Source: Alphaproteobacteria bacterium (GTDB lineage Bacteria > Pseudomonadota > Alphaproteobacteria > Bin95). From it: DNA of 64,000 nucleotides. Position numbers and translations under genes: made by a program. The stretch's first letter is position 1; the number at the start of each line of letters is the position of its first letter. The stretch spans positions 14,335 through 78,334 of the forward strand of contig CBFIAF010000002.1 of NCBI GenBank assembly GCA_965660545.1. Reading direction: 5' to 3'. Shown here piece after piece: positions 25,806-38,870 of this stretch. Under the pieces are notes generated by a model that saw nothing but the letters and a program-made list of their open reading frames with translations, was not told where the DNA came from and did no database searches.

Positions 25806-27539
25806 CTACCAACCAAGCGCATATGCGACGCGGCGCGGATCGGCGCCAGCAGCCTTCATACCTGACTCCCGATCGTCCAAGATCATGCAGATTGAGCCTG
25901 CGAGCCATGTTCGGTCCGGCCACCAGTCAATCCTGTGACCACGCCCGGCCAAATCATCACCAGCCGCCTTATCCACCTTGCCCTCAAGCCGAAGCAGGCC
26001 TGGGTGATAGTCATGCGGCTCGAAGCTGGATGGGAAGGAATAGCTGGCAAAACGCGGTGCCTCGACAGCCGCCTGCGGGCCCATGCCAAACACGGCGACA
26101 TTGGCGAAAGTTTGCGCCATCGCCTGGGTTTGCACATCTCCTCCAGGCGTGCCGAACGGCAGAAATGCCTTACCGTTATCCCGAACGGCAATCGCAGGGT
26201 TCGGCGTCAAACGTGGGCGCTTGCCGGGCGCGATCGATGACGGATGCGTTGGGTCCGTCCATGACTGCACTCCGCGCGGGCTAACATTCATACCTGTCCC
26301 CGGCACCACAGCACCGTTGTATGACCCATCCGATGGCGTAGCAGAAAACACGTTGCCCTTTCTATCCGCGACACAAAGATACGTCGTATCGAGCGCACCG
26401 CCTGGATGTGGATTGTCCGTTATTGGGCTTGACACATTTGCGCCACGCCATGGATTGCCAGATGCATCGCCAGGAGGCGGCATCTCCGGAAACGCTTCGC
26501 CCATTTTAATACGTGCCATCTGCGCTTCAGCATATTCTTCCGACAAAAGCGTTTCGATTGGAACGTCAATGTAGCGGGGGTCGCCGAAATAGGCGTCCCG
26601 GTCGGCCATGACGAGCTTGGTGGCTTCAACCTGCGCATGGATATAATCGGCGCTGTTGTGACCCATGCCTTTAAGGTCAAAGCGTTTCAGAAGGTTCAGC
26701 TTCTCCATCAATACTGGGCCTTGGCACCATGGGCCACAGCCGAATACCTGCCAGTCGCCAAAGCCGGATGAGACAGGTGGTTCGAGAGCCACATGAAATC
26801 CCGCCAAATCTTGCATCGTCAGCCAACCGCCGACATCCTTGTGGTAATCCGTGAATGCCTTCGCCAGATCACCTTTGTAGAAGGCATTGCGCGCCGCTTG
26901 CAGACCGGCCTTCCGGTCTACGCCATTGCTCAGTGCCGTCGCTTCTTGATCAATCATATATTGAAGAGAAGCACCTAACTCTTTCTGGTAGAACAGCTCA
27001 CCTATATCAGCAGGCTGGCCAGCCTTTGGCAGATAGATCGCAGCTGCATGCGGATATGCCAGATAGTTTTCGCGGTTCTGGGTTATCGTCTGCCGGAGCA
27101 GTGCATTCATCGGGAAGCCATCACGGGCGAAGCGAACGGCATGGTGCGCCACATCCCCGAAGCTCATAGTGCCGTAGCGATCAAGCGCCATGATCCAGGC
27201 TGCAGGTGCCGATGGAATGACTGTTCGCATCGGGCCAATCGGGATTGCACCATTGTACTCTCGGCGGAAATAATCAATGTCTGCCGCTTTCGGCCAACCA
27301 CCAAGGCCAGAAATTGTTTGCATCTCCGCCCGCTCTGCATCCCACACGATTATCGGCGCAACGCCAGCGACGCTCACAAGATCAGACTGCAATACACCAA
27401 GCGCTAAGCCTGCGGCGACGCCAGCATCCGTGGCGTTTCCGCCGGCTTGCAGCACCTCGAAAGCGGCTTGGCTGGAATAGTAATGACCTGTCGATACAGC
27501 AAATTGGCTGCCTTGGATTTCTGGACGTTCGGTGGACAT
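25806..27539 (-). CDS. Gamma-glutamyltransferase family protein (paralog 2)
   Basis: The catalytic-Thr motif TTYLCVADRKGNVFSATPS is present, with GGT architecture. Confidence 0.85.
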   Translation of the reverse strand: MSTERPEIQGSQFAVSTGHYYSSQAAFEVLQAGGNATDAGVAAGLALGVLQSDLVSVAGVAPIIVWDAERAEMQTISGLGGWPKAADIDYFRREYNGAIPIGPMRTVIPSAPAAWIMALDRYGTMSFGDVAHHAVRFARDGFPMNALLRQTITQNRENYLAYPHAAAIYLPKAGQPADIGELFYQKELGASLQYMIDQEATALSNGVDRKAGLQAARNAFYKGDLAKAFTDYHKDVGGWLTMQDLAGFHVALEPPVSSGFGDWQVFGCGPWCQGPVLMEKLNLLKRFDLKGMGHNSADYIHAQVEATKLVMADRDAYFGDPRYIDVPIETLLSEEYAEAQMARIKMGEAFPEMPPPGDASGNPWRGANVSSPITDNPHPGGALDTTYLCVADRKGNVFSATPSDGSYNGAVVPGTGMNVSPRGVQSWTDPTHPSSIAPGKRPRLTPNPAIAVRDNGKAFLPFGTPGGDVQTQAMAQTFANVAVFGMGPQAAVEAPRFASYSFPSSFEPHDYHPGLLRLEGKVDKAAGDDLAGRGHRIDWWPDRTWLAGSICMILDDRESGMKAAGADPRRVAYALGW

Positions 27540-27597
27540 CTTTCGGCTCCCCGGTTATTCGGCACATGTAGTTTGCCCGAAACTGGATGCTCCCGTG

Positions 27598-28635
27598 AAG
27601 CTCATAGATTTTGACTTCAATCTGCCCGACGGCCTGATCGCCCAAACGCCTGCCCGTCCCCGCGACGCAGCGCGCATGTTGGCGGTAACCCCAGACGCGC
27701 TTTTCGACAAAGGCGTGATGGATTTACCGGGCCTGCTCCAGCCTGGCGATCTGATAGTTGTGAATAACACGCGGGTCATTCCAGCGCGCCTTCGGGGGCT
27801 GCGTGGCCAAATGCGTGTTGATGCAACACTGCACAAGGCTGTCGACGCATCCCACTGGCTAGCCTTCGCGCGCCCCGGGCGTCGATTGCGTGTTGGCGAC
27901 CGCGTTACGTTCGCAACAGGGTTCGAGTGTACCGTCGAGGAAAAGCACGATGGTGGGGAGTTTCTGTTGGCATTTGACGCCAGCGGGTCTGAGTTGATTG
28001 AGGCTCTGCACCGTCACGGCGCGCCGCCATTGCCCCCTTACGTAAAACGCCCAGATGGTGCGTTGGATGAGGATGTGGCAGATTACCAAAGTCCTTTTGC
28101 TGCGCGCGACGGTGCAGTGGCTGCCCCTACCGCATCCCTACATTTCACGGATAGACTGCTAAAAGCGATCGCAGACCGCGGCGCCAAACAGGCGATTGTA
28201 ACTTTGCATGTGGGTGCCGGCACGTTCCTGCCAGTAAAAACGGATAATATTGCGGAACACCAGATGCATAGCGAATGGGGCGAAGTTTCAAACGCCGTTG
28301 TCAAAGCCGTCGCTGAAACAAAGGACAAGGGCGGACGGGTTGTTCCGATAGGCACAACAGCATTGCGGATATTGGAAGCCGCAAGCCAATCCGGCGCACT
28401 AAAGCCCTTCCAAGGCGATACGGATATATTCATCACACCCGGTTATTCATTCCGCACTGTCGATGCGCTGATGACAAACTTTCATTTACCGAAATCGACG
28501 CTATTCATGCTGGTCTCCGCAATGATGGGCCGCGAAACCATGCTCAGCGCCTATGCCCACGCCATCTACGAGCATTATCGCTTTTTCTCATATGGGGATG
28601 CCAGCTTGCTCCTCCCCGGAGGCCTCGCGCCATGA
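27598..28635 (+). CDS. queA: tRNA preQ1(34) S-adenosylmethionine ribosyltransferase-isomerase
   Basis: The GTG-start N-terminus [20 protein letters not shown] is the canonical QueA start. Confidence 0.9.
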
Positions 28636-29732
28636 CCATTAAATTCGATCTTCTGGCCGAGGACGGTGCCGCTCGCCGTGGCCGCATTACGACCGCCCAC
28701 GGGACCATTGAGACCCCAGCGTTCATGCCCGTTGGCACTGCCGGTACGGTTAAAGCCATGCGGCCAGAAGAGGTTGAGGCAGCGGGCGCTGAGATCATCC
28801 TCGGCAACACTTACCATCTGATGCTGCGGCCTGGTGCCGAGCGGGTCAACCGCCTTGGGGGACTGCATAACTTCATGCGCTGGCCAGGGCCAATCCTGAC
28901 CGATTCAGGGGGGTTTCAGGTGATGTCGCTTTCTGAACTTCGCAAGATTACAGAGGACGGTGTCCGTTTTCGCAGCCACATAAATGGTTCCTATATCGAT
29001 CTGACCCCAGAGCGGTCGATCCAGATCCAAAACCTATTGGACGCCACCATCACAATGGCGTTTGATGAATGCACCCCCTTTCCGGCGGAACATGCCGTTG
29101 CGGCAAAGTCCATGCAGCTCTCGATGCGTTGGGCCAAGCGCAGCAGCTATGCATTTGAAGCCAGGCCTGGATATGGCCTGTTCGGCATCGTCCAAGGCGG
29201 GGTTTATGAGGATTTGCGGGTTGAAAGCGCTGGCATGCTGCAAGACATAGGCTTTGATGGTTATGCCGTTGGGGGGCTTGCGGTCGGCGAAGGCCAGGAG
29301 CAAATGTTCGAAACCTTGCAGGCCACCACGCCACATCTGGCCCGTGAGCGCCCGCGATACTTGATGGGAGTCGGCAAACCGGCGGATATCATCGGTGCGG
29401 TTGCGCGCGGTGTGGACATGTTTGATTGCGTTCTGCCGACGCGGTCTGGCCGTACCGGCCAGGCCTGGACATGGGATGGACCGCTCAACCTTCGCAATGC
29501 CAAACATCGGGATGACGCAAACACGCCGCTAGACCCTAATTGCGTATGCCCTGTATGCCAAAAATATGACCGAGCTTACCTCCACCATCTGACTAAAGCG
29601 CAAGAGGTACTCGGCCTCATGCTACTAACCCAGCACAATCTTTGGCATTATCAAGATCTAATGCGACGAACGCGTGCTGCGATTGAAGCAGGTACATTTA
29701 GCACATTTTTAGCGAAATACAGCATTAAATAA
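28632..29732 (+). CDS. tgt: Queuine tRNA-ribosyltransferase (tRNA-guanine transglycosylase)
   Basis: It has the Tgt N-terminus …[22 protein letters not shown] and the zinc-site CxCxxC…H. It overlaps queA by 4 nt. Confidence 0.9.
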
Positions 29733-30096
29733 AATATCTAACTAAAATAATTATAAAAAAATTCTATATTATACAATAATAAAACTACAATAAAATTAAT
29801 ATTTTTTGCTTTTTATACGATAAAATTTTGGTAAATTATAATATATAAAAATTATTTTTAGTTAACTCCTTGTTAAATTGATTTCTACATTATTTGAGCA
29901 TACTATGCACCGCGAAAACATTTTTATGCGGCAGCGTGATGAAGCTTCAGGCAACACTCAGGCCCTCTCACGAAGCAAAGGAATTCACACTATGGGTTTG
30001 ACCGTAAGGTGTACATGAGCTTTACCAGCCGAAAATTCGCATTAGCGTCGCGAACTGAGCGCTGATATGATTCTCTGACGTCACGGCAGTGTAGTC

Positions 30097-31075
30097 ATGA
30101 AGCCCAACAGTCTTTTCAGACTTTCGGATCATCTGGCCATACTTAGCAAGCACGGCGATCCGCTTGAGGTTCTCCATGTGACGTCGGACTTCAAGTGTTT
30201 CTGGGACTGGCTGGTTGAGGGACTCGGTTACGGGGACGGCGCCAAGGACGGCCGGCCGCCGTTCGATCCGGTGTCTATGTTCAAGGCGCTGATCCTGCAG
30301 GCGCAGCGCAATCTATCGGACGTGCGGATGGAGTTCATGATCCGGGGCCGTTTGTCGTGGATGCACTTCCTGGGCTTCGACTGGCAATTGAGGAAGAAAG
30401 GCTACATCCCCCCTCTCAGCGATTGCGCGCAATCGCCTGCCGGGCAACGCATGTCCGGCCAGAGCGTGGGCGCCTCCTTGGTTCCAGCCCCGAAGCAGCG
30501 GAACACGGAGGATGAGAAGGCGGCCATCAAGGCGGCTCAGAAGGACACAAATGCCCGCTGGACATTGAAGATCAGCGGCAAGGTCCGCTACCGCCTTGAC
30601 GGAACGGCGTTGCCGATGATCGCGATCCCGACCTTCGGCTACAAATCGCACATTGCGATCGACCGTCGATACAGCTTTATCCGCAGCTTCGCCGTGACAT
30701 CGGCAGCCCACGGCGATGGCAAAGTGCTGCGCCGAGTCGTGACCACGGATAATACCAGCGGCAATGTATGGGCGGACAGCGCCTATCGCTCCAAGGCGAA
30801 TGAGGCATGGTTCTCGAGCTAGGTGCCGCGCAGCCAGATCCATCGTCGCAAGCTTAAAGGCAGGCCGATGTCATCGGCCACATCTCGTGCCAATGGCAAG
30901 AAGTCGAGTATCCGTGCCGGTGTGGAGCATGTCTTCGCCCATTAGAAGAACCACTATGGGCTGTTCATTCGCACGATCGGCCTGACGCGGGCCGAGGCGA
31001 AACTGACTCTCGCCAATCTCGCCCATAATATGGACCGGCTCGTGTTCCATGAACGGCGCGTCGCCACAGGATAAA
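30097..31075 (+). mobile_element. IS5-family insertion sequence remnant; the transposase ORF is disrupted by in-frame stops and an internal deletion
   Basis: The N-terminal part (30097..30822) matches IS5/IS4-type DDE transposases (…APKQRNTEDEKAAIKA…). The C-terminal motifs KGRPMSS…VEHVFAH*KNHYGLFIRTIGLTRAEAKLTLANLAHNMDRL continue in another frame, with TAG stops at about 30820 and about 30942. The GC content is about 60%, against the surrounding AT-rich DNA. Confidence 0.7.
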
Positions 31076-32004
31076 TCCGCCTGACTTTAGAGAAATCCGC
31101 CATTCTACGGCGGAAATACCCGATCAGCACATAATAGATGCGTCCTCACCCGCGCAGCTTTGCCTTATTGGCTTGTACCGCAATCAGAATAAACGGTTGA
31201 TACAGGTGTCCTGCTGGTATCTTTGAAACACCAGTCGCATTCACCATTGTTTGTGCTACATTTGGCACGCCGTGCATGGCATTCTGGACATTATTTGGCG
31301 CAGCATTTGCCCGCGTTTTCCAGAATCCGAAGGCCCGCCGCATTATCGGCTGTACGCTGCCGATCATCCTTCTCGCAACAATCCCATTCATGTTCCGCTG
31401 AATAGAAAAAGGCCGGGCCTCCTTGGTGGAGGCGCGGCCCATCGATAGCCGTAAAGATGAAAGTGTCGTTTGGCGCTTACAGAACTGGAATATAAAATAA
31501 ATGAATATCTAACAGTATGTTAATGCTATTCATAAAATAACGTATTTTATACGTACTTTTAAGTTTTATCGAGAAAAATCATAAAACCAACCTGCAATCT
31601 AGTATTTATACATATTCTTTTCATGCGCATCAGGTTGTTTTCAAGCTCATTCAATCGATTAAATAGCCGATTGGGACCAGCATAACTTAGTGCGCTATGA
31701 CGAACGATCGCACGTATATCAGTTTCCGGTTCCTAGGTTCGGTCGCTTATTTGATCGGCTGTTTCTGAGAAGGGTGATACGTTCTGTCATTGCTATGAGC
31801 CAGGTGCCGCTCTTCTGGGATGTATTTCGGACTGGTAGGCGTTCAATCCGAGACAGAGCGCTCTGTGACTTCATACTCAGGGCTTCGATCACAATTCCTG
31901 CTTTGCCAGCAACCATCCGTCATTCAGTAACGCATGCTCCGAGACACCTATCGCGCTACCAAAAGTGTATTTCATTCATTTGCACTTTCTGCCAGACTCT
32001 TCGT

Positions 32005-33036
32005 ATGAAAAACCTAACAGCCACGATCTGCCTCGGCGTTGCCCTGCTTCTTGGAAGTAAGGGAATGGCTTGGAGCCAAGATTTTGAAAAGGGTCTAACC
32101 GCTGCTAAAAGTGGAGATTATTCAACTGCTCTGTGGGAATGGACGCCTCTTGCGAAACAGGGGTATTCCGATGCCCAATACAATCTGGGAGTGATGTACG
32201 AAAATGGGCAAGGTGTTCCAAAGAACTATGTGACTGCTGTAAAATGGTACAGACTTGCCGCCGAACAAGGGGTTGCCGATGCCCAGTTCAATCTGGGTAA
32301 TGCATACCGCCACGGACTAGGTGTTCCACAAAACGATAAGACTGCTGTGAAATGGTACAAACTTGCCGCCGAACAGGGGAATGCCACTGTCCAGTACATT
32401 CTGGGACAGATATACCGCCAAGGAAAAGGTGTTCCCCAGGATTATAAGACAGCAGTGAAGTGGTACACACTTGCTGCCGAACAGGGGGGTGCCAATGCCC
32501 AAGGAAATCTGGGTGTTATGTACAGCGCAGGACAAGGTGTTCCCGCGGACAATAAGACAGCAGTGAAGTTATTCAAACTTGCTGCCGAACAAAGGTACGC
32601 CGATTCCCAGTACAATCTGGGTGTGATGTACAGCAAAGGACAAGGTGTTCCCCAGGATTATAAGACAGCGGTGAAGTGGTATACACTTGCTGCCGAACAG
32701 GGGGATGCCTCTGCACAGTACAATCTTGGTGTGATGTGCGAAAATGGACAAGGCATTCCCCAAGATTATAAGACAGCGGTGAAGTGGTACACACTTGCTG
32801 CTAAACAGGGCGATGCTGATGCCCAGACCAATCTCGGTGTGATGTATGGAACGGGAAGAGGGGTCATGCAGAATTTTGTTTATGCCCATATGTGGGGAAA
32901 TCTTGGTGCCTCTAATGGGAGTGAGAATGGAGGTAAGTTGCGAGAAATCGCCGCTAAAAAAATAACCCCGTCCCAACTTGAAACCGCTCAGAAACTTGCC
33001 CTTGAATGTGTCCGTAAGAAGTATTTAGGGTGTTGA
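32005..33036 (+). CDS. Secreted Sel1-like repeat (SLR/TPR-like) protein, about 7 repeats (family paralog A)
   Basis: It has the signal peptide MKNLTATICLGVALLLGSKGMAWS. It carries tandem 36-aa units AQYNLGVMYxxGQGVPQDYKTAVKWYxLAAEQG. It has a cysteine-containing C-terminal tail …ECVRKKYLGC. The start is chosen at ATG 32005; the 31690 ORF start is an upstream read-through. Confidence 0.8.
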   Translation: MKNLTATICLGVALLLGSKGMAWSQDFEKGLTAAKSGDYSTALWEWTPLAKQGYSDAQYNLGVMYENGQGVPKNYVTAVKWYRLAAEQGVADAQFNLGNAYRHGLGVPQNDKTAVKWYKLAAEQGNATVQYILGQIYRQGKGVPQDYKTAVKWYTLAAEQGGANAQGNLGVMYSAGQGVPADNKTAVKLFKLAAEQRYADSQYNLGVMYSKGQGVPQDYKTAVKWYTLAAEQGDASAQYNLGVMCENGQGIPQDYKTAVKWYTLAAKQGDADAQTNLGVMYGTGRGVMQNFVYAHMWGNLGASNGSENGGKLREIAAKKITPSQLETAQKLALECVRKKYLGC

Positions 33037-33210
33037 GTAAAACCTAACTGAGTGCCCGATATGCAATCGCTCGTCCTATTCCCATCCGCTTCGCAGTTGC
33101 AGACGCACTTAAGTCACTAACGCCCAGCATTAATCCCCCCAATTTGCGAGATGCCCATAGCGCTCCCACAAGGGTATTTGCTCCAATCCCACTTTCTGCA
33201 AACTTTTTGC

Positions 33211-33315
33211 ATGAGAAATCTGACTGCCACCATCTGCCTCGCCGTTGCCCTGCTCCTTGGAAGTGCGAGGGTAGCTTGGAGTGCTGGTTTTCAAAGGGGA
33301 TATGCTGGATACCAG
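33211..33315 (+). pseudogene. Orphan 5' module of the Sel1 family (leader, signal peptide, about 35 codons), with no repeat body
   Basis: MRNLTATICLAVALLLGSARVAWSAGFQRGYAGY is near-identical to the paralog B start. The reading frame then runs into unrelated or antisense sequence. Confidence 0.5.
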
Positions 33316-33450
33316 AGGAGTTGCGTAATCACCACTTTTGTATGCGATTACACCCTTTCTAAACTCTGGCTCCAAGACCCTCCCGCACTTCCAAGAAGCA
33401 GGACAACGGCCAGGCAGGGTCTGGCGGTCAGTTTTTTAGACGGAGAGTCT
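33301..33450 (-). pseudogene. Second orphan 5' module of the Sel1 family in inverted orientation, start codon lost and frameshifted, abutting the + strand orphan head-to-head
   Basis: The reverse-strand translation KKLTARPCLAVVLLLGSAGGSWSQS, then (frameshift) EFRKGVIAYKSGDYATPL, parallels the paralog A start MKNLTATICLGVALLLGSKGMAWSQDFEKGLTAAKSGDYSTAL. Confidence 0.45.
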
Positions 33451-33549
33451 GACAGAGAATATTTAGAATGGGTAGAGAGAAAGGGGTGTGGGTAGAGTTA
33501 TGGGAAATAGGAAGGGCGCGCGTGTATCGGGCACTCGGTTATATTTTAC

Positions 33550-34149
33550 TCAACATCCTTTGTAGTTTTTGCGGGCACATTCACGGGCAAGTTTCTTTGC
33601 GGTAGAGATTTCGGCGGGGGTCATCTTTTTCCCAAAATCATCCATCAAATTCGCACCCAACTTATTTCCATTGGTCGCAGCGATGCTTCCCCACATGTGA
33701 GCATATATATACCCTTTTAGCACTCCCCGTCCCAATGCGTACATCAAACCTAGACCAAACTGGGCATCGGCATCACCTTGTTCGGCGGCAAGTTTGTACC
33801 ACTTCACCGCAGTCTTATAATCCTGCGGAACACCTTGCCCGTTGGCGTACATCACACCCAGATTGTACTGGGCAAAGGCATTCCCCTGTTCGGCAGCAAG
33901 TTTGTACCATTTCACCGCAGTCTTATAATTCTTGGGAACACCTTGTCCGTTGGCGTACATCAAACCTAGATTGTACTGGGCATCGGAATGCCTCTGTTCG
34001 GCAAGAGGTGTCCATTCACGCAAAGCAGTTGCGAAGTCACCGCTCTTGTATCCCGCATACCCCCTTTGAAAATCAGCACTCCAAGCTACCCCCGCACCTC
34101 CAAGAAGCAGGGTAACGGCGATACAGATGGTAGCGGTCAAGTTTCTCAT
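33550..34149 (-). CDS. Secreted Sel1-like repeat protein, about 3 repeats (family paralog B)
   Basis: It has the signal peptide MRNLTATICIAVTLLLGGAGVAWS, Sel1 units AQYNLGLMYANGQGVPKNYKTAVKWYKLAAEQG, and the same C-terminal tail …ECARKNYKGC as paralog A. Confidence 0.8.
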   Translation of the reverse strand: MRNLTATICIAVTLLLGGAGVAWSADFQRGYAGYKSGDFATALREWTPLAEQRHSDAQYNLGLMYANGQGVPKNYKTAVKWYKLAAEQGNAFAQYNLGVMYANGQGVPQDYKTAVKWYKLAAEQGDADAQFGLGLMYALGRGVLKGYIYAHMWGSIAATNGNKLGANLMDDFGKKMTPAEISTAKKLARECARKNYKGC

Positions 34150-35361
34150 ACGGAAAGTTTCGCAGAAAGTGGAATTGGTGCAAATAGCCTTGTGGAAGCG
34201 CCATCGACAGGCAAGTGTATCTCGTAACGTAGGTGGGTCACATGCTGGGCGTCGGTGACTAAATCGTATCAGCAGCCCCCTAGAGGGCTTTGTCGCACAT
34301 TCTCATGGGGCTTTTTGTACTTCTAAGATTTTAACAGCGGGCATAAATTTATTGGTGGTAGCTTTGATCTAAACTCCTGAAATAATGTGATATCTTAATA
34401 CAATTCGAACAAAAAAATTTTGCTTTTATAAATAATTCCTGGTTATTATGATTATGTCGAATTGGTTTGTTTATTTATAACTACAATTTTTTCGGCGGCA
34501 ATTTAATATTCGATCGTATACAAAGTTATATTCTAAAGATATTCAAATACAATATACTGAGTAATTTTTAAAATATAGGCATATATTTATGTAAAAAAGC
34601 CATATTTAATACTGCAATGAAGTAAAATATGGTCCTTGTAAACAATGATAAAAATAATAAATTTTTACCAACACTCTCTGTTATAGCGCGAGTTGCCTCT
34701 TCTATATTTTGATTAATTTCAATTATTGATTTAAGAGACTCTTTCGTAAGTGCGCCTTGGAGGCAGCAGAAAGGCATTGAATGTCCCTCTTCCGGTTACC
34801 AAATTAATGATGTGATTTAATTGCAGGGGTTCTTTTTAGCAATTATGCAATTAAAATTGCGTTTCTCTGCGGACGGAGGCTATTCAAGCAGTGCTGGCGC
34901 ATTATCACCTCTCCAATGCGCCTCAACACTCCTCTGAAAGTTTAGCGATACGGCACCAGAGACAGCCCAATCTCCAAAGCTTTGAGTTACGTTTCATTCG
35001 TTTAACCTTCTTATATCACGACCTGATAATCGTAAGCCCAGCATCTAACGATTGACCAGACGCTTTATCTTCAGATTACTCGCAGGATCGCGCCTCGTTC
35101 AGCGGAGGAGGGCACGATGGTCGTCCTTGAACTTGTGAGCGTCTAACACCCGTTTCTCTATGGAAATATCAAAAATCATGGCGTTAGCGTAGAAATCGGT
35201 CAAAATGCTATGTAAGCGCCCGTGAAGCGGTGAGCTGCCAGTAAGCGCTCTCACCGCTCATTTGTAGCCCTGAGTGCAGCTTATCGGAGCTGTCTGTATT
35301 TTTCAGCAACGCATACCAAAGTCGTGACGGTTGACGAACTCTGATTCATCCTTTGAGTTAA

Positions 35362-35565
35362 CCCATTGAGCGCATCAGTATTTGGGCAAAAATACCAGAA
35401 AAACTTACTTTTCCACAACTTGAGTCCTTCCTATGGGAAAGCGCAGACATCTTTCGTGGAAATATGGATGCGTCAGAGTTCGAGGACTACATTTTTGGGA
35501 TGATGGTCCTGAAGCATCTTTCGGACCCGTTCGAGGAAGAGCGAGTAGTTAGTCTTAAATTATGA
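35362..35565 (+). pseudogene. hsdM: Relic N-terminus of a type I restriction-modification methyltransferase (HsdM), about 65 codons, with no start and a premature stop
   Basis: …TFPQLESFLWESADIFRGNMDASEFEDYIFGMMVLKHLSDPFEEER matches the conserved HsdM N-terminal domain (LWxxADxLRGxMDASEYKxYIxGLxFLKxLSDxFEE). A stop lies 5 codons upstream and a TGA follows after RVVSLKL. Confidence 0.65.
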
Positions 35566-35831
35566 CTGAGCAATTCCAGGAACTTTCGAATTTCGTAGAG
35601 GAAGAAATGCGCATGATGCTTTTGTATAAGTCAGTGATGCTTAAGGGACATGACCACCATCTGTAACCGATATCAGATGAACGAATGAGACCTAATGAGA
35701 CGTGCTATCGTGGAGTTCATCACTGACATCCAAAAGGACCCGAGTAATACCTCACGTCATATGTTTCTCTGAGGTCCCACTCGGACATTACATGCCTGAA
35801 AGACCCCGCAGCATGGTGTCTGAGCCATCTC

Positions 35832-36590
35832 CTATTTCATAAATTTTTTAAAGAACTCTATCGTTCGTTTATGAGAGTCTTTGGTGACAAAATCATTATA
35901 AATATATTTTCTATGGTTCTTTCGATCCCAAGCATGACCAACGCCAGTGTAAATATGAGTATTAATTGTTGCACCTCTGCTTTTTATTTCACTCCAGGCT
36001 TCCTGTGCAAAATTTAGACTTTGTATTTTATCAACATCACCATGCAACGCCAATATTGGATTGCTAGATTTGGAGAAATAATTCATAGGGTAGGGGTTGG
36101 TTATCTCTCTACCAAAATTTGCCTTCCAAACTCCATAGTGAGAAACACCGGCGCTCACTTTCGAACTACCCGTTAGATAACCAACCCAGAACCCCCCGTT
36201 GGAAAAACCTGTGGCAAAAATGTTTTCTTTCTCGACCTTAGGTTCATTGTGCATGAGACCAACAACTTCAGATAAATCGTTTTCGATGTCCTCCCTAAAC
36301 CGATCGAATGTGCTCATCCTCGACCGAGTGGTTATGCCATATTTAACAAAGAAATTTGGAGCATAAACAGCGAAACCATCATCTACATAGCGCTGGATAA
36401 GATGTCCTACTGTCTTAAATCCTCCGCTGGTATGAAGTGCTATTACCGCTGGGAATGGACCGGAACCATTAGGAAAGAATTTTTCATGGTAAATTGCTTC
36501 TGCTCGGACGCTGCTAGCAAAGAATAAATAAACTACCAAAGCCAAATAAAATTTAGTGCATATGTACATTTTTACATTCCTCTGAATCAA
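35832..36590 (-). CDS. Secreted alpha/beta hydrolase, dienelactone-hydrolase-like
   Basis: It has an N-terminal signal peptide, the nucleophile elbow GFSNGG, an acid residue in LHGDVD, and a histidine in GVGHAW. The gene has very low GC relative to the genome. Confidence 0.65.
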   Translation of the reverse strand: MIQRNVKMYICTKFYLALVVYLFFASSVRAEAIYHEKFFPNGSGPFPAVIALHTSGGFKTVGHLIQRYVDDGFAVYAPNFFVKYGITTRSRMSTFDRFREDIENDLSEVVGLMHNEPKVEKENIFATGFSNGGFWVGYLTGSSKVSAGVSHYGVWKANFGREITNPYPMNYFSKSSNPILALHGDVDKIQSLNFAQEAWSEIKSRGATINTHIYTGVGHAWDRKNHRKYIYNDFVTKDSHKRTIEFFKKFMK

Positions 36591-36592
36591 AA

Positions 36593-36672
36593 TTGCTTTT
36601 ACCTCAACTTACTCCGCACTTCCAAAAAACAGTGCAACTGCAAAGCATGTGGTGGCAGTCAAGTTTATCATA
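36593..36672 (-). pseudogene. Third orphan Sel1-family leader/signal-peptide start (MINLTATTCFAVALFFGSAE*), sitting directly upstream of the hydrolase gene
   Basis: The reverse-strand ATG at 36672 is followed by a 19-codon SP-like ORF. The roughly 135 bp upstream (36655-36790) is about 80% identical to the region upstream of paralog B (34134-34270). Confidence 0.5.
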
Positions 36673-36859
36673 CGGAAAGTCTGGTAGACCGTGGGAATGC
36701 AGAAAATACCCTTGTGAAAGCGCCATCGGCGGGCAAGGGCATCTCGCAGCGTGGGCGAGTCAATGCTGGGCGTCAGTGACTAAAGTGCGTCTGCGATTGC
36801 GAAGGAAATGGGGATAGGCAGAGCGAGCGTGTATCTGGCATTAGGGTGGTAGAGGTCAG

Positions 36860-37688
36860 TCGAGATTTTGGAAGATAGCCTTCTTGGTCCGCATCTCTTC
36901 AATCTGAGCAGTCGTCATCCAGCAAGATAAATAATAGGTTCCATCAGATATCATCTTCCCAAGAGCAGTCTTGGAGATTGATGCTCTATTGGATTTGCGA
37001 GAAGTGATGTTTTTACTCTCCAAAATGCTTCTTACCACACTCGTCTGATGCCAAAGTTGGTATTCTCCGGTAGTGAGCCGAATTCCTCGAGTGTCTTTGT
37101 TATGTGCCCTTCATCCGTCGCAACACGAAGAAACTCATTGATCAGGGATGCTTAAGCTCGAAGCGTTGCAAAGCAGGGGTCTACAACAATGTTACGGGAT
37201 GCTGTGCCTTTTGCCCCAATACGCTTCTCGTTCACCTCTATGCGCTTTTTGCGCTTGAGGTCTTTCCAGTAGTTCAGGCGATAATCCTAGTAGCCATCGC
37301 AGAAGGGCTTTGTGAGATTGCCGAGAACCTTCTTTCCCATGAACTCTGAGACGTAGCGTTCATAGACACTGCGCTTCCATTCGAGGCGTTTCTCAGTGAC
37401 GTGATGCTGTTTACGATCAAGCCAGTCATGGAAGAACTTATCGACTGTGACCTCTGTCAGAGAGAAGCCACCCTTATGTTTCACTAAGAGATCGACATAA
37501 GCAGCTTGCGCTTTGAGGATTACCTCGCTGGCATCTGATGTGCCGCAGCTTCGTCGTATGTAACCGGCAATGCCTTCGACCTTTGCTCGGAAAAAGAACC
37601 TATCGCTATCTAGGTCGTTACGCCGAAAGATAATCAGCCTGCTGCCGTGAAGAGGGCTCTTTTGGCGGTCTTTATAAGCCTCAGGCAT
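36860..37688 (-). pseudogene. Relic of a P4-type tyrosine integrase; an N-terminal arm-binding/SAM-like region of about 133 aa is intact (37287..37688), and the remainder is interrupted by stops
   Basis: The N-terminus has the DUF4102-like pattern (…GSRLIIFRRNDLDSDRFFFRAKVEG…) and the core-binding-like pattern (…FFHDWLDRKQHHVTEKRLEWKRSVYERYVSEFMGKKVLGNLTKP). A TAG after …CDGY is followed by unrelated frames, and no R..HxxR..Y catalytic box was found. Confidence 0.4.
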
Positions 37689-37804
37689 GACGTCCGTGCT
37701 TTTTTGAGAACTGCTGGTCTGAAACGAGAACTGGTAACGGAACGTGCTTGATTCGTGCCTTTCTCATCAACCCAGTAAAGCAGGAATCGCAGAGTTCTGC
37801 GAGT

Positions 37805-37842
37805 CGTGCGTCAGACGTGCCTCCAAAGAAAAAGAGCTTCGC
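37805..37842 (-). terminator. Intrinsic terminator downstream of rpsI
   Basis: On the minus strand, a GC hairpin GCTTCGCTTCGGCGAAGC is followed by TCTTTTTCTTTGG, about 50 nt after the rpsI stop. Confidence 0.5.
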
Positions 37843-37887
37843 CGAAGCGAAGCCCTTGATACATATAAATATATTGTAGTATTTGTC

Positions 37888-38391
37888 CTAGCGCTTCGAG
37901 AACTGAAAGCTACGACGGGCTTTAGCCCGACCATACTTCTTACGCTCTACCATGCGGCTATCACGTGTAACGAAACCTGCAGCTTTCAGCGCAGGGCGGA
38001 GGCCCGGCTCAAAAGCCATCAGCGCGCGTGTCAGGCCATGGCGCACTGCGCCAGCTTGGCCAGACAATCCACCGCCTTTAACGGTGCATATCAGGTCATA
38101 CTGATTGAGGCGGTTCGCAACATCGAACGGGGACAGTGCGAGCATCTGCAAGTTGGCCCGGGAGAAATATTCGGTCACGGTCTTGCCGTTTACCGTCATC
38201 CTGCCGGAACCAGGCTTGATCCAAACGCGTGCGACTGATTCTTTACGACGACCTGTGCCATAGGAACGGCCATGCTCGTCGATCTTCGGATCGGGCAGAG
38301 CATCGCTGGACATTTCAGCACCGCCGCCTTGGGCACCATCTTCACCGAGCGCGTCTTTCAAGTCCGCGAGAGTGCGTGTTTCATCAGCCAT
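37888..38391 (-). CDS. rpsI: 30S ribosomal protein S9
   Basis: The C-terminus …[19 protein letters not shown]…[25 protein letters not shown] is the S9 signature. Confidence 0.95.
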
Positions 38392-38870
38392 TAGCTGGAC
38401 CTCCGAGCGCGGAACGCGTTCTTATTGTTCATAGATGCGACATCCAGGGGCTGAGGCTCCTGGGCTGCATGGGGATGATCTGGACCAGAATAAACGTGCA
38501 ACTTTTTGATCGATGCACGGGCAAGCTTGGTTTTAGGCAGCATCCGCTCGACAGCTTTTTCGATCACGCGCTCCGGGAAGCGGCCTTCGAGAATTTCATG
38601 TGCGGTGACACTCTTAATGCCACCTGGGTAGCCGGTGTGGCGATAATAGGTTTTGTCTTGACGCTTGTTGTTGCCTGTCATGGCAACTTTTTCAGCGTTA
38701 ATGACGACGATGTGATCGCCGCAATCAACATGCGGTGTGAATTGGGGCTTGTGCTTGCCGCGGAGGCGCATCGCGATGACGCTTGCGAGACGGCCTAGAA
38801 CAAGGCCTTCCGCATCAATCACGTTCCATGCACGCGCGACCTCGCCCGGTTTGGCTGAGACCGTTGACAT
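38391..38870 (-). CDS. rplM: 50S ribosomal protein L13
   Basis: [30 protein letters not shown]… is the canonical L13. The start is set at the internal ATG, and TAATG overlaps rpsI. Confidence 0.95.

What the first reader, a model, noticed from the sequence alone, without database searches (positions are those of the whole stretch)
31870..36790. Multi-copy cassette-like family: five copies of a conserved leader + signal-peptide module, but only two intact Sel1-repeat genes
The motif cactttctgc-(a/g)aaactt…gtATGA(A/G)AAAYCTGACTGCCACCATCTGCCT…, encoding M(K/R)NLTATICLxVALLLGS, recurs at 32005(+), 33211(+), about 33445(-), 34149(-) and 36672(-). Only the first and fourth copies continue into Sel1-repeat bodies, and both of those end in the same Cys-containing tail (…AHMWG…KxTP…TAxKLAxECxRKxYxGC). 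The other three are orphans. One of the orphans sits immediately in front of the unrelated hydrolase gene. A conserved 5' module plus conserved 3' tail with variable repeat bodies and silent orphan copies is the architecture of recombinational variation systems, but no recombinase partner is evident here. Sel1-repeat secreted proteins commonly mediate host or surface interactions.
Basis: seen in the sequence. Interest (0 to 1): 0.75.

Follow-up and report, generated by a model that had tools for sequence, protein, structure and literature searches.

The report
Decayed Sel1 gene array on island
The five repeated "leader plus signal peptide" pieces are the starts of five tandemly duplicated secreted Sel1-repeat genes on a decaying mobile island; two genes are intact and three are wrecks. 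There is no sign of a switching system, but related loci reuse the same start module on unrelated secreted proteins.

Summary
There are five copies of a leader plus signal-peptide (SP) head: A 32005+, B 33211+, C ~33445-, D 34149-, E 36672-. Only A (343 aa, 7 Sel1 repeats) and D (199 aa, 3 repeats) are intact, and they share a Cys-containing tail.

The interpretation as a recombinational switch is not supported.
- The region is the remnant of a strain-variable, integrase-borne island next to rpsI (~31.1-37.7 kb, low GC). An empty site and different cargo occur in sister strains.
- The ~175-nt leader is composite. Its distal ~77 nt is an antisense fossil of the 3' end of a small serine recombinase gene (..AIAKEMGIGRASVYRALG*). 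This gene is intact and abuts the last Sel1 gene in related elements.
- B and C are two convergent heads fused at a 9-nt quasi-palindrome (33313-33321).
- E lost its body to AT-rich DNA carrying a GYD pseudogene, with a later 1.7-kb insertion that includes the hydrolase.
- Independent assemblies are collinear (100 % and 93.6 % identity). Orphans and leaders drift at roughly the neutral rate. Heads share at most 18 identical bases.

Across ~100 marine loci the same junction module flanks foreign, co-oriented ORFs, and its SP has replaced the native SP of at least one unrelated protein family. That indicates evolutionary cassette-like shuffling, not programmed variation.

The parts
30038..31083 (+). 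IS5-family transposase pseudogene at the far edge of the island. It is homologous to the IS5 that interrupts the serine-recombinase gene next to the Sel1 array in L013.
   Evidence: Pfam DUF772 plus DDE_Tnp_1. tblastn gives 71.5 % identity to the L013 IS5 over 30097-31071, and blastn gives 80-83 %.
31223..31923 (.). Distal end segment of the rpsI island. It is conserved in sister-strain islands.
   Evidence: blastn gives 81 % identity to L129 18760-19461, which lies just before LysE/COQ9, the genes that follow rpsI in the empty site. It also gives 92 % to the end of L031.
31920..32004 (+). Proximal leader of copy A. It has no recombinase fossil, as in first units of arrays elsewhere.
   Evidence: nhmmer unit profile positions 152-236. 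Homology to L013 starts right after that locus's integrase stop codon.
32005..33036 (+). Gene A: intact secreted Sel1-repeat protein, 343 aa. It comprises an SP, 7 Sel1 repeats and a Cys-containing tail.
   Evidence: ORF. Pfam Sel1 at 2e-84 with 7 stretches. 108-nt periodic repeats (D1).
33037..33210 (+). Full composite leader of copy B.
   Evidence: Alignment. nhmmer profile positions 4-347 map to 32984-33321.
33050..33118 (-). Fossil of the 3' end of a small serine recombinase (HTH_7) gene inside leader B: ..SASATAKRMGIGRAIAYRALS*
   Evidence: tblastn against the L013 HTH_7 ORF, aa 44-66, E=2e-4. The same fossil occurs in about 17 unit junctions of other loci.
33211..33321 (+). Orphan head B. 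It has the start codon, the SP and about 12 further codons, then runs into inverted copy C.
   Evidence: 86 % identical to the D head over 118 nt (I9). Profile homology ends at position 347, which is 33321.
33313..33321 (.). B|C junction. CAGAGGAGT is at once the left arm of B's quasi-palindrome (codons for ..KSG..) and the reverse complement of the right arm of C's (..T(A/P)L..).
   Evidence: The B hit ends at 33321 and the C hit ends at 33313. Sequence read directly. The same 9-nt overlap is present in L031 and L033.
33313..33461 (-). Orphan head C. The start codon is lost and there is a 1-nt deletion. It retains the SP and about 20 codons of the mature N-terminus.
   Evidence: Alignment. 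nhmmer profile positions 215-365. Only 81 % identical to its orthologue in L033.
33503..33549 (+). Recombinase fossil downstream of gene D (..EIGRARVYRALG), part of the short-type leader of C.
   Evidence: tblastn aa 57-67. nhmmer profile positions 5-108 map to 33601-33503.
33550..34149 (-). Gene D: intact secreted Sel1-repeat protein, 199 aa, with 3 repeats and the tail.
   Evidence: ORF. Pfam Sel1 at 2.6e-34. Identical to P0002. 95.2 % identical to the L033 orthologue, with 13 synonymous and 14 nonsynonymous codon changes.
34150..34273 (-). Leader of D. It is cut at profile position 124, so only about the last 10 nt of the recombinase fossil remain.
   Evidence: nhmmer profile positions 124-395 map to 34273-33991.
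34274..34864 (-). AT-rich segment with a decayed GYD-domain gene (ORF 34568-34777). The gene is intact in L031.
   Evidence: blastn gives 78.6 % over 770 nt to L031 4490-5246. Pfam GYD matches the L031 ORF but not the window ORF.
34865..36584 (.). 1.7-kb insertion that is absent from L031. It contains the dienelactone-hydrolase gene (35832-36569, -, with its own SP) and an HsdM N-terminal fragment (35380-35566, +).
   Evidence: Comparison with L031. Pfam DLH at 4.5e-22 and HsdM_N at 3.5e-13.
36609..36672 (-). Orphan head E: MINLTATTCFAVALFFGSAE followed by a stop.
   Evidence: The same dead head and the same break are present in L031.
36673..36856 (-). Full composite leader of E. It includes the recombinase fossil 36787-36846 (..SAIAKEMGIGRASVYLALGW*, coding sense on the + strand).
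   Evidence: tblastn gives 95 % over 20 aa, E=2e-7. nhmmer profile positions 62-300.
36856..37105 (-). 3' end of a MORN-repeat/trypsin-like protease gene. It is the unit that preceded E and is intact in L021 and L031.
   Evidence: L021 1104-3369 matches window 37105-34841 at 99.7 %. Translation. Pfam MORN, Trypsin_2 and Sel1 on the L031 705-aa protein.
37086..37688 (-). First ~200 codons of the island's tyrosine integrase gene, which is 478 aa when intact. It is truncated and fused to the protease remnant.
   Evidence: 95 % identical to the 5' part of intact integrase genes that follow rpsI in L129-L135. Weak Pfam Phage_int_SAM_3 match.

Best explanation
**What it is.** The region is the decayed remnant of a tandem array of paralogous genes for Sec-exported Sel1-like-repeat (SLR) proteins. 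The array is cargo of an integrase-borne, strain-variable genomic island inserted beside rpsI in an uncultured marine alphaproteobacterium.

**The repeat unit.** The unit is a whole gene plus its spacer. The spacer (the 'leader') is a historical mosaic:
- About 77 nt is the antisense fossil of the last ~25 codons of a small serine recombinase gene. In intact relatives this gene lies tail-to-tail against the last Sel1 gene.
- About 95 nt is the native upstream region.

A founding duplication with one end inside the recombinase gene created this junction (inferred). Unequal homologous recombination then multiplied units, changed the number of 108-nt Sel1 repeats, and kept exchanging sequence with the live recombinase gene.

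**State of the five units.**
- A and D still encode working proteins. They are probably periplasmic or surface protein-binding scaffolds, with a disulphide in the tail.
- B and C are the heads of two convergent units, joined by a rearrangement at a 9-nt quasi-palindrome within codons 33-42. This could have been an inversion or a fold-back template switch; the mechanism is inferred.
- E's body was replaced by AT-rich DNA carrying a GYD gene. A 1.7-kb segment carrying the hydrolase was later inserted into that DNA.

The island's integrase is truncated and its recombinase is gone, so the locus is now static.
For: **Island**
- GC falls to 39-49 % across ~29-38 kb, against 55-58 % in the flanks.
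- Sister strains with the same S9 protein have an intact 478-aa integrase and different cargo after rpsI. One strain has no island at all, with LysE/COQ9/def directly after rpsI.
- The window keeps 95 %-identical integrase 5' sequence and the island's distal end.

**Unit structure**
- The alignments show tail, spacer and head all homologous.
- The fossil matches the HTH_7 end of a Resolvase/HTH_7 protein.
- That gene is intact and starts 15-20 nt beyond the last Sel1 stop codon in L047, L057 and L094. L059 and L079 show the gene's full 3' end at the same position, and in L013 the gene is IS5-disrupted.

**Exchange with the live gene**
- Variation among fossils is 3-periodic in the recombinase reading frame: codon position 2 at 0.94, position 1 at 0.85, position 3 at 0.76, p=0.007.
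- Each fossil is closer to its own array's live gene than to others in 4 of 4 loci.

**Family**
- 7962 protein hits were found, with lengths stepping by 36 aa (163/199/235/...343).
- Direct tandem arrays are the rule.

**Stasis and decay**
- L022 is 100 % collinear over 36814-33880. L033 is 93.6 % collinear over 34251-32108 with the same junction.
- Genes are 95-96 % identical, leaders 87-91 %, and orphan C 81 %.
- C lacks a start codon.

**E history:** comparison with L031.

**Protein class**
- Pfam Sel1.
- The nearest solved structures are SLR proteins: 6ok3, EsiB 4bwr, 8sxq and HcpC 1ouv.
Against: - Among paralogous units the leader (83 %) and SP third codon positions (79 %) are better conserved than third positions of the tail (72 %) and the mature N-terminus (66 %). 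Some homogenisation or constraint therefore acts on the 5' module, so it is not pure decay.
- Dead heads and tail ends persist in many loci rather than being deleted.
- The second breakpoint of the proposed inversion is not present in the window.
- No reads were available, so rare rearrangements cannot be excluded.
- Export, disulphide formation and function of A and D are inferred from sequence only.
Confidence: 0.75

Rival explanations
1. Programmed recombinational variation. A recombinase, or RecA, inverts or exchanges DNA between the oppositely oriented 5' modules. Different Sel1 bodies would then be expressed, with B, C and E acting as silent or donor cassettes.
For: - Heads occur in both orientations (A and B on +; C, D and E on -).
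- A small serine recombinase that scores best against the PHROG 'DNA invertase' family (3.8e-61) is the conserved neighbour of these arrays elsewhere.
- In two distant loci (L041, L104) the Sel1 gene has the opposite orientation relative to the recombinase gene.
Against: - There is no intact recombinase in or near the locus.
- Every copy has its own leader and start, so inversion would not switch expression.
- The longest identical run between any two heads is 8-18 nt, and no site is shared by all five.
- All independent contigs are collinear with the window, including a lineage 6 % diverged.
- Orphan C has no start codon and drifts fastest.
- No inverted repeat pair brackets the arrays next to intact recombinase genes in L013, L047, L057 or L094.
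Confidence: 0.05
2. The conserved ~290-nt junction is a selected, portable expression-and-export module. It consists of the tail end, the leader, the start codon and the SP. On evolutionary time, foreign ORFs are captured between junctions, or fused to the SP, by recombination in the conserved flanks. The arrays would then act as a platform that equips incoming genes with a promoter, a start and a Sec signal. The window's E/GYD/hydrolase segment would be one such capture. This is compatible with the best explanation for the present state of the window.
For: - More than 15 independent non-Sel1, mostly AT-rich ORFs sit after truncated heads. 18 of 20 are co-oriented with the array.
- 8-9 are long in-frame fusions to the SP, 131-457 aa.
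- A Cys-rich 150-160-aa family has members with its own unrelated SPs and members carrying the Sel1-family SP, with homology starting at the cleavage region.
- Tail ends resume after the foreign ORF in L013, L047, L053, L057, L065 and L097.
- MORN and MORN-trypsin proteins use the same head.
Against: - Break points are clustered but not at one nucleotide: head at CDS nt ~47-82, tail at 6-43 nt into the profile. No motif is shared at the breaks. This argues for illegitimate events filtered by selection rather than a dedicated mechanism.
- The leader evolves at about the neutral rate between orthologues.
- No promoter consensus, Rfam family or conserved RNA fold was found in the leader.
- In the window the hydrolase has its own start and SP and is not fused to E.
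Confidence: 0.2
3. The leader is a structured cis-regulatory RNA (riboswitch or 5'-UTR element) that is duplicated together with its gene.
For: High sequence conservation of ~175 nt upstream of many family members. No Shine-Dalgarno-like sequence is evident upstream of the ATG (seen directly in the sequence).
Against: - No Rfam match up to E=1.
- RNAalifold on 17 leaders gives -9.7 kcal/mol, with 0 of 17 pairs showing compensatory change.
- Almost half of the leader is demonstrably a gene fossil with codon-periodic variation on the other strand.
Confidence: 0.03
4. The mirror arrangement and the orphans are artefacts of assembling a repeat-rich region.
For: Short-read assemblies break at these repeats. 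Contigs L022-L030 start inside leader E, and L001 ends at 37015.
Against: The B|C junction, the dead E head and the D/A mirror are reproduced in independent assemblies from other projects and samples. These are JGI 3300032047 (L033), JGI 3300031774 (L032) and ENA ERZ27250999 (L031), at 76-94 % identity, so they are not copies of one assembly.
Confidence: 0.02

Closest known systems
Haemophilus influenzae msf (SlrVA) locus: tandem Sel1-like-repeat genes (PMC13556256)
   Same: Several tandem SLR genes. Each has an N-terminal SPI-type signal peptide, a variable number of Sel1 repeats and a short conserved C-terminus. Copy number differs between strains and short ORFs lie between copies. The paper describes this architecture, which is the same as units A and D here.
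   Different: A different phylum-level host and habitat. No association with an integrase/recombinase island is described in the passages read. No inverted copies, dead heads or recombinase fossil in the spacers are described. Sequence orthology was not tested.
Solved bacterial SLR proteins: EsiB (4bwr), Legionella SLR proteins (6deh, 8sxq), H. pylori HcpC (1ouv)
   Same: The same repeat fold class by sequence, E 1e-30 to 1e-79. All are secreted or periplasmic protein-binding scaffolds.
   Different: Hcp proteins have a disulphide in every repeat. Here only the C-terminal tail has two cysteines. No functional data exist for this family.
Site-specific inversion and shufflon systems: Hin/Gin/Cin/Min, R64 shufflon, Mycoplasma vsa/vsp (from general knowledge)
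   Same: A gene family with a conserved 5' end present in both orientations. A small serine recombinase of the invertase/resolvase family is the habitual neighbour of the arrays in related elements.
   Different: These systems have identical short crossover sites, an intact recombinase, and usually one expression site with silent partial genes. None of these features is present here.
Borrelia erp/ospE/ospF/elp 'upstream homology box' genes (from general knowledge, not checked in the library)
   Same: A conserved promoter/leader and signal peptide is joined by recombination to unrelated mature proteins on mobile (prophage) DNA. This resembles what the wider family shows.
   Different: Those are lipoprotein signals on cp32 plasmid-prophages of a spirochaete. 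Here a Sec SPI-type signal sits on chromosomal islands of marine alphaproteobacteria, with Sel1 arrays as the main cargo.
Integron gene-cassette arrays (from general knowledge)
   Same: Co-oriented ORFs separated by a repeated boundary element and adjacent to a tyrosine recombinase. Foreign, AT-rich cargo is present.
   Different: There is no attC-like hairpin and no precise junctions. The integrase is a phage-type island integrase in tandem rather than divergent orientation. The boundary element contains coding sequence (tail and SP).

Membership tests
Sel1-like repeat (SLR) proteins, Pfam PF08238 | Several ~36-aa Sel1 repeats scoring above the Pfam gathering threshold | tested here: met
   A scores 275 bits with 7 stretches. 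D scores 117 bits with 3 stretches. The cut-off is 30.7.
Sel1-like repeat (SLR) proteins, Pfam PF08238 | Sequence relatives with a solved SLR solenoid fold | tested here: met
   phmmer against PDB: 6ok3 at 1e-79, 4bwr at 4.5e-73, 1ouv at 4.7e-30. No structure was predicted here.
Tandem SP-SLR-conserved-C-terminus loci (msf-like) | Adjacent paralogues, each with a signal peptide, a variable number of repeats and a shared short C-terminus | tested here: met
   The signal peptide is inferred from its n/h/c-region pattern (MRN-LTATICLAVALLLG-SAGVAWS); no SignalP tool was available.
Integrase-borne genomic island | Integrase at one edge, atypical composition, presence/absence and cargo polymorphism among close strains | tested here: met
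   GC dip. Integrase fragment 95 % identical to intact genes at the same site in L129-L135. Empty site in JGI 3300072015.
Site-specific DNA inversion / shufflon systems | Intact cognate recombinase gene at the locus | tested here: not met
   Only a ~25-codon fossil with stop codons or frameshifts and a 201-codon integrase fragment.
Site-specific DNA inversion / shufflon systems | Identical short crossover sites in inverted orientation | tested here: not met
   Longest exact run between heads is 8-18 nt, and none is common to all. No bracketing inverted repeats occur in intact relatives.
Site-specific DNA inversion / shufflon systems | Both orientations, or alternative junctions, present in a population | tested here: inconclusive
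   All assembled contigs from several samples are collinear.
Site-specific DNA inversion / shufflon systems | One expression site with promoterless silent cassettes | tested here: not met
   Each copy has its own leader. A, B, D and E also have a start codon.
Integrons | attC-type imperfect palindromes bounding each cassette, with precise junctions | tested here: not met
   No conserved structure in the junction element. Break points are spread over ~35 nt and share no motif.
Small serine recombinase (Resolvase + HTH_7) | Catalytic N-terminal domain plus C-terminal HTH in one ORF | tested here: not met
   This applies to the window fossils. The window has no match to the catalytic domain. Intact 178-aa genes with both domains occur in L094, L047 and L057.
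Known RNA families (Rfam 15) | Covariance-model match | tested here: not met
   0 matches up to E=1 in 29000-38000.

The most novel reading that the evidence does not exclude
The ~290-nt junction (Sel1 tail end, recombinase-fossil leader, start codon and signal peptide) may be a portable module that marine alphaproteobacterial islands use to capture and export foreign proteins. Incoming ORFs would be recombined in between junctions, always co-oriented. They would either be driven by the leader or be fused in frame to its signal peptide. This would be an 'export cassette array' that works by flanking homology rather than by attC-type sites. The neighbouring integrase and serine recombinase would move the whole array between genomes.
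Probability: 0.2. Interest if true: 0.75.

Novelty: new member of a known kind. Interest (0 to 1): 0.4.

Why it matters
For this window, an apparent variation system turns out to be the fossil record of an island. The record can be read in unusual detail:
- a founding duplication, dated by a recombinase gene fragment;
- a rearrangement pinned to a 9-nt quasi-palindrome;
- nested insertions.

More broadly, the family is very abundant in ocean metagenomes, and its start module has demonstrably been transplanted onto unrelated secreted proteins. If that reuse is selected rather than accidental, it would be a simple route by which free-living marine bacteria diversify their secreted and surface proteins. 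It would also supply a ready-made natural promoter and signal-peptide cassette.

Tried and rejected
- **Exact-protein look-ups of A, D and P0002.** These found no contigs. Context came instead from rplM, rpsI, the hydrolase and close relatives.
- **SP-coding DNA pattern in species-representative genomes.** Only two true loci turned up, L011 and L012, both alphaproteobacterial MAGs. The other four hits were chance.
- **Regulatory signals in the leader.** Rfam, a sigma-70 and terminator scan (counts no higher than in shuffled sequence and none of the sites lies in a leader) and RNAalifold on 17 leaders gave no support for a regulatory RNA or a consensus promoter.
- **Is the proximal half of the leader also recombinase-derived?** The local alignment score was 20 against shuffles averaging 16.8; 117 of 1000 shuffles reached it. 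Rejected.
- **Do head and tail break points mark a site-specific crossover?** They are clustered but not at a single position, and no motif is shared. Rejected as evidence for a dedicated recombinase site.
- **Inverted repeats bracketing arrays next to intact recombinase genes.** None found, apart from stray inverted tail fragments in L047.
- **NCBIfam.** There is no model for the conserved signal peptide. The best whole-protein match was MerG, far below its cut-off.
- **'Cassette replacement' at the E site.** The window carries the hydrolase and L031 carries GYD, which first looked like alternative cassettes. It resolved into a nested 1.7-kb insertion in the window.
- **Literature searches.** These found the H. 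influenzae msf analogue, but nothing on this marine family.

Full report
**1. The observation**

Reading 31500-37300 and aligning the five stated places confirms five copies of one module. In the sense of the gene these are A (ATG at 32005, +), B (33211, +), C (about 33445, -), D (34149, -) and E (36672, -).

The degenerate motif itself matches only A and B at up to 3 mismatches, with none expected by chance. The other three are more diverged. A nucleotide profile of the unit nevertheless finds them at E = 1e-32 to 1e-63, and finds nothing else in the 64-kb window.

- A encodes 343 aa with seven Pfam Sel1 repeats and D encodes 199 aa with three. Both end in the same tail with two cysteines.
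- B keeps about 36 family-like codons.
- C has lost its ATG and carries a 1-nt deletion.
- E is 20 codons followed by a stop.
- E does lie just upstream of a dienelactone-hydrolase gene that has its own start and signal peptide.

**2. What the repeat unit really is**

Homology is not limited to a short leader. It runs from the tail of the preceding gene through about 175 nt of spacer into the next gene. The layout is therefore A->B on the + strand and D->C on the - strand: two short tandem arrays facing each other.

The distal part of the spacer, read on the opposite strand, translates to ..SASAIAKEMGIGRASVYRALG*. In a related contig (L013) this is the end of an ORF with a Pfam HTH_7 hit. tblastn places it at 36787-36846 (95 % over 20 aa), at 33050-33118 and at 33507-33539. 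D's leader keeps only about the last 10 nt of the fossil and A's leader has none.

The corresponding intact gene is a 178-aa Resolvase+HTH_7 protein whose best PHROG family is 'DNA invertase'. It sits tail-to-tail 15-20 nt beyond the last Sel1 stop codon in L047, L057 and L094. L059 and L079 show its full 3' end at the same position, and L013 has it disrupted by an IS5.

In the unit profile the fossil occupies positions 57-133. The native upstream region starts at about position 142. First units of arrays (window A, L011, L012, L013, L035) begin there. In L013 that point is the stop codon of a 422-aa tyrosine integrase.

The simplest history is one tandem duplication whose right end fell inside the recombinase gene, followed by unit multiplication. 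This step is inferred.

**3. The fossil has kept exchanging with the live gene**

Among 11 distinct full units the fossil's column conservation is 3-periodic, exactly in the recombinase reading frame. Codon position 2 is 0.94, position 1 is 0.85 and position 3 is 0.76, with permutation p = 0.007. The proximal leader shows no such pattern.

In all four loci that hold both a fossil and a live gene end, the fossil is closer to its own live gene (0.79-0.87) than to others (0.75-0.84). The two share variants. Unequal crossing-over or gene conversion between junctions and the recombinase gene explains this without any special mechanism.

**4. The setting is a decaying island**

- GC falls from 55-58 % to 39-49 % across about 29-38 kb.
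- The ribosomal genes rplM and rpsI lie at 37888-38870.
- Contigs of the same strain end just beyond them, at 37015.
- In sister strains carrying the same S9 protein, rpsI is followed by an intact 478-aa phage-type integrase and then by cargo that differs from strain to strain. In one sample rpsI is followed directly by LysE/COQ9/def, which is an empty site.
- The window keeps only the first ~200 codons of that integrase (37086-37688, 95 % identical). These are fused to the 3' end of a MORN/trypsin protease gene that is intact in L021 and L031.
- The island's distal end (31223-31923) is recognisable. It is followed by an IS5 pseudogene homologous to the one that splits the recombinase gene in L013.
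- Beyond the IS5 the window has tgt/queA rather than LysE/COQ9, so the flank has been rearranged.
- The organism is an uncultured marine alphaproteobacterium.

**5. How the three orphans arose**

*B and C.* B's homology ends at 33321 and C's ends at 33313. The shared nine bases are CAGAGGAGT. They are simultaneously the left arm of a quasi-palindrome in B (family consensus CAGAGTGGT-N9-ACTGCTCTG, codons ..KSGD(F/Y)ATAL..) and the complement of the right arm in C.

A break at a short inverted repeat inside the gene is what an inversion within a direct array would leave. A fold-back template switch would leave the same mark. The mechanism is inferred, and the reciprocal junction is not in the window.

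*E.* L031 has the same dead head and the same break, followed by an intact GYD gene and then the D leader. The window has a decayed GYD gene (34274-34864) plus an extra 1.7 kb (34865-36584) that carries the hydrolase and an HsdM fragment. So E lost its body to AT-rich DNA first, and the hydrolase segment was a later nested insertion.

**6. Test of the switching hypothesis**

- No intact recombinase is present.
- Each copy carries its own leader, and A, B, D and E carry a start codon.
- The longest identical run between any two heads is 8-18 nt. That is short for homologous recombination and unlike the identical crossover sites of known inversion systems.
- Eleven contigs read from several sequencing runs carry the hydrolase. 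The longest compared runs at 100 % identity from leader E to inside D (L022).
- L033 and L031, from other projects, keep D, C|B and A in the same order with the same junction at 93.6 % identity.
- Between these orthologous loci A and D are 95.7 % and 95.2 % identical. D has 13 synonymous and 14 nonsynonymous codon changes, which indicates moderate purifying selection.
- By contrast the leaders are 87-91 % identical and orphan C is 81 %. The orphans and leaders are therefore drifting.
- Next to intact recombinase genes in four relatives, no inverted repeats bracket the arrays.

Assemblies are consensus sequences, so rare variants cannot be excluded.

**7. The leader as RNA or promoter**

There is no Rfam hit and no sigma-70 consensus in any leader. 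The consensus fold is weak at -9.7 kcal/mol and has no compensatory pair among 17 leaders. A possible recombinase origin for the proximal half of the leader was tested and rejected.

**8. The wider family**

The D protein has 7962 relatives at E < 1e-10. Their lengths step by one 36-aa repeat. Twenty-five 199-aa members are uniformly conserved, with a mean column identity of 83 %. The SP is not an island of conservation in an otherwise variable protein.

Eighty metagenome loci and fifteen IMG/VR loci were fetched. Direct tandem arrays dominate among them.

Among paralogous units, some homogenisation or constraint on the 5' module is likely:

| Segment | Identity among paralogous units |
|---|---|
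| Leader | 83 % |
| SP, third codon positions | 79 % |
| Tail, third codon positions | 72 % |
| Mature N-terminus, third codon positions | 66 % |

**9. An unexpected pattern outside the window**

Twenty-three truncated heads in other loci break at CDS nt ~16-82, and 21 of them at nt ~47-82, around the end of the SP. In several, the last 15-45 nt of the Sel1 tail resume after a foreign, mostly AT-rich segment.

In 18 of 20 such segments the longest ORF is co-oriented with the array. Eight or nine are long in-frame fusions of the family SP to unrelated bodies. These include MORN proteins, two lipoprotein-like proteins and several unknowns of 131-457 aa.

For one of them the swap is explicit. A Cys-rich ~155-aa family has members with three different native SPs and members with the Sel1-family SP. 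Homology begins at the cleavage region.

The break points are not at one nucleotide and share no motif. This looks like illegitimate or homology-assisted exchange filtered by selection, not a dedicated site-specific reaction.

**10. Comparison with known systems**

The closest described architecture is the H. influenzae msf locus. It has tandem SLR genes, each with an SPI signal peptide, a variable number of repeats and a conserved short C-terminus (PMC13556256).

By sequence, A and D are ordinary SLR proteins related to EsiB, Legionella SLR proteins and HcpC. The best NCBIfam match is MerG, far below its cut-off.

The locus fails the defining tests for inversion or shufflon systems and for integrons (see the membership table). 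From general knowledge, the SP swapping resembles the Borrelia upstream-homology-box lipoprotein genes.

**11. Verdict**

- The best explanation is a decayed tandem array of secreted SLR genes on a defunct integrase island, with a composite leader that preserves a recombinase gene fossil. Confidence is about 0.75.
- The locus itself is a new member of a known kind and of modest interest.
- The family-wide reuse of its junction module is the part worth following up.

Noticed in passing
L079:719-1380, with P0151-P0168: A Cys-rich ~155-aa secreted protein family exists with at least three different native signal peptides. In L079, P0151 and P0153 it carries the Sel1-family leader and signal peptide instead. 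Homology starts at ..SADSSQQ. This is a clean case of signal-peptide and leader replacement.
   Followed up: yes
L013:10783-11110; L047:6880-7460; L053:2258-2763; L057:9079-9450; L065:7234-7790 and 10039-; L097:2760-3188; L114:7740-, 9157-: A recurrent pattern: a dead or fused Sel1 head (the first ~20-25 codons in most; about 10 in L013), then an AT-rich foreign ORF in the same orientation. In several of these loci (L013, L047, L053, L057, L065, L097) the last 15-45 nt of the Sel1 tail then resume, followed by the next leader. 18 of 20 inserts are co-oriented.
   Followed up: partly
Unit profile positions 57-133, e.g. window 33050-33118 and 36787-36846: Variation among copies of the recombinase fossil is 3-periodic in the recombinase reading frame (p=0.007). 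Each fossil resembles the live recombinase gene of its own array. This implies ongoing exchange between junctions and the live gene.
   Followed up: yes
window 33313-33321 (also L031 6027-6035, L033 934-942): The junction of the two convergent orphan heads falls on a 9-nt arm of a quasi-palindrome that lies within the coding sequence of every family member (CAGAGTGGT-N9-ACTGCTCTG).
   Followed up: partly
window 37086-37105: A deletion joins the 5' 40 % of the island integrase gene to the last ~84 codons of a MORN/trypsin protease gene. Close relatives of this strain (L021, L026) carry the protease gene's coding sequence upstream of this point; L021's ORF reaches its contig edge.
   Followed up: yes
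window 35380-35566 and surroundings (34865-35830): An N-terminal fragment of a type I restriction-modification HsdM gene, with other short broken ORFs, lies inside the 1.7-kb insertion. Its origin was not traced.
   Followed up: no
window 27532-29732 compared with L129 19548-20504: Beyond the island and IS5 the window has queA/tgt. Sister strains, and the empty site, have LysE/COQ9/def there. This suggests a larger rearrangement at the IS5.
   Followed up: no
L041:47-520 and L104:80-300: In two distant relatives the serine recombinase gene is upstream of, and co-oriented with, the Sel1 gene, with its stop codon ~25 nt before the ATG. This is the opposite relative orientation to the usual tail-to-tail arrangement.
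   Followed up: partly
L015-L020, L043: One family member sits in a prophage-like context. The neighbours are a 195-aa invertase-like serine recombinase, a 422-aa integrase, an endonuclease VII/HNH protein and a tail-fibre-like repeat protein. Fifteen family loci are on IMG/VR contigs.
   Followed up: partly
window 31980-32004, 33186-33210, 34150-34175: No Shine-Dalgarno-like sequence precedes the start codons of these genes (..CTTTCTGCCAGACTTTCCGTATG). How they initiate translation is open.
   Followed up: no
window 33462-33502; L036 183-224; L041 1769-: A second, shorter leader type exists, in which profile positions 109-214 are replaced by ~40 unrelated bases. It is shared by several loci.
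   Followed up: no
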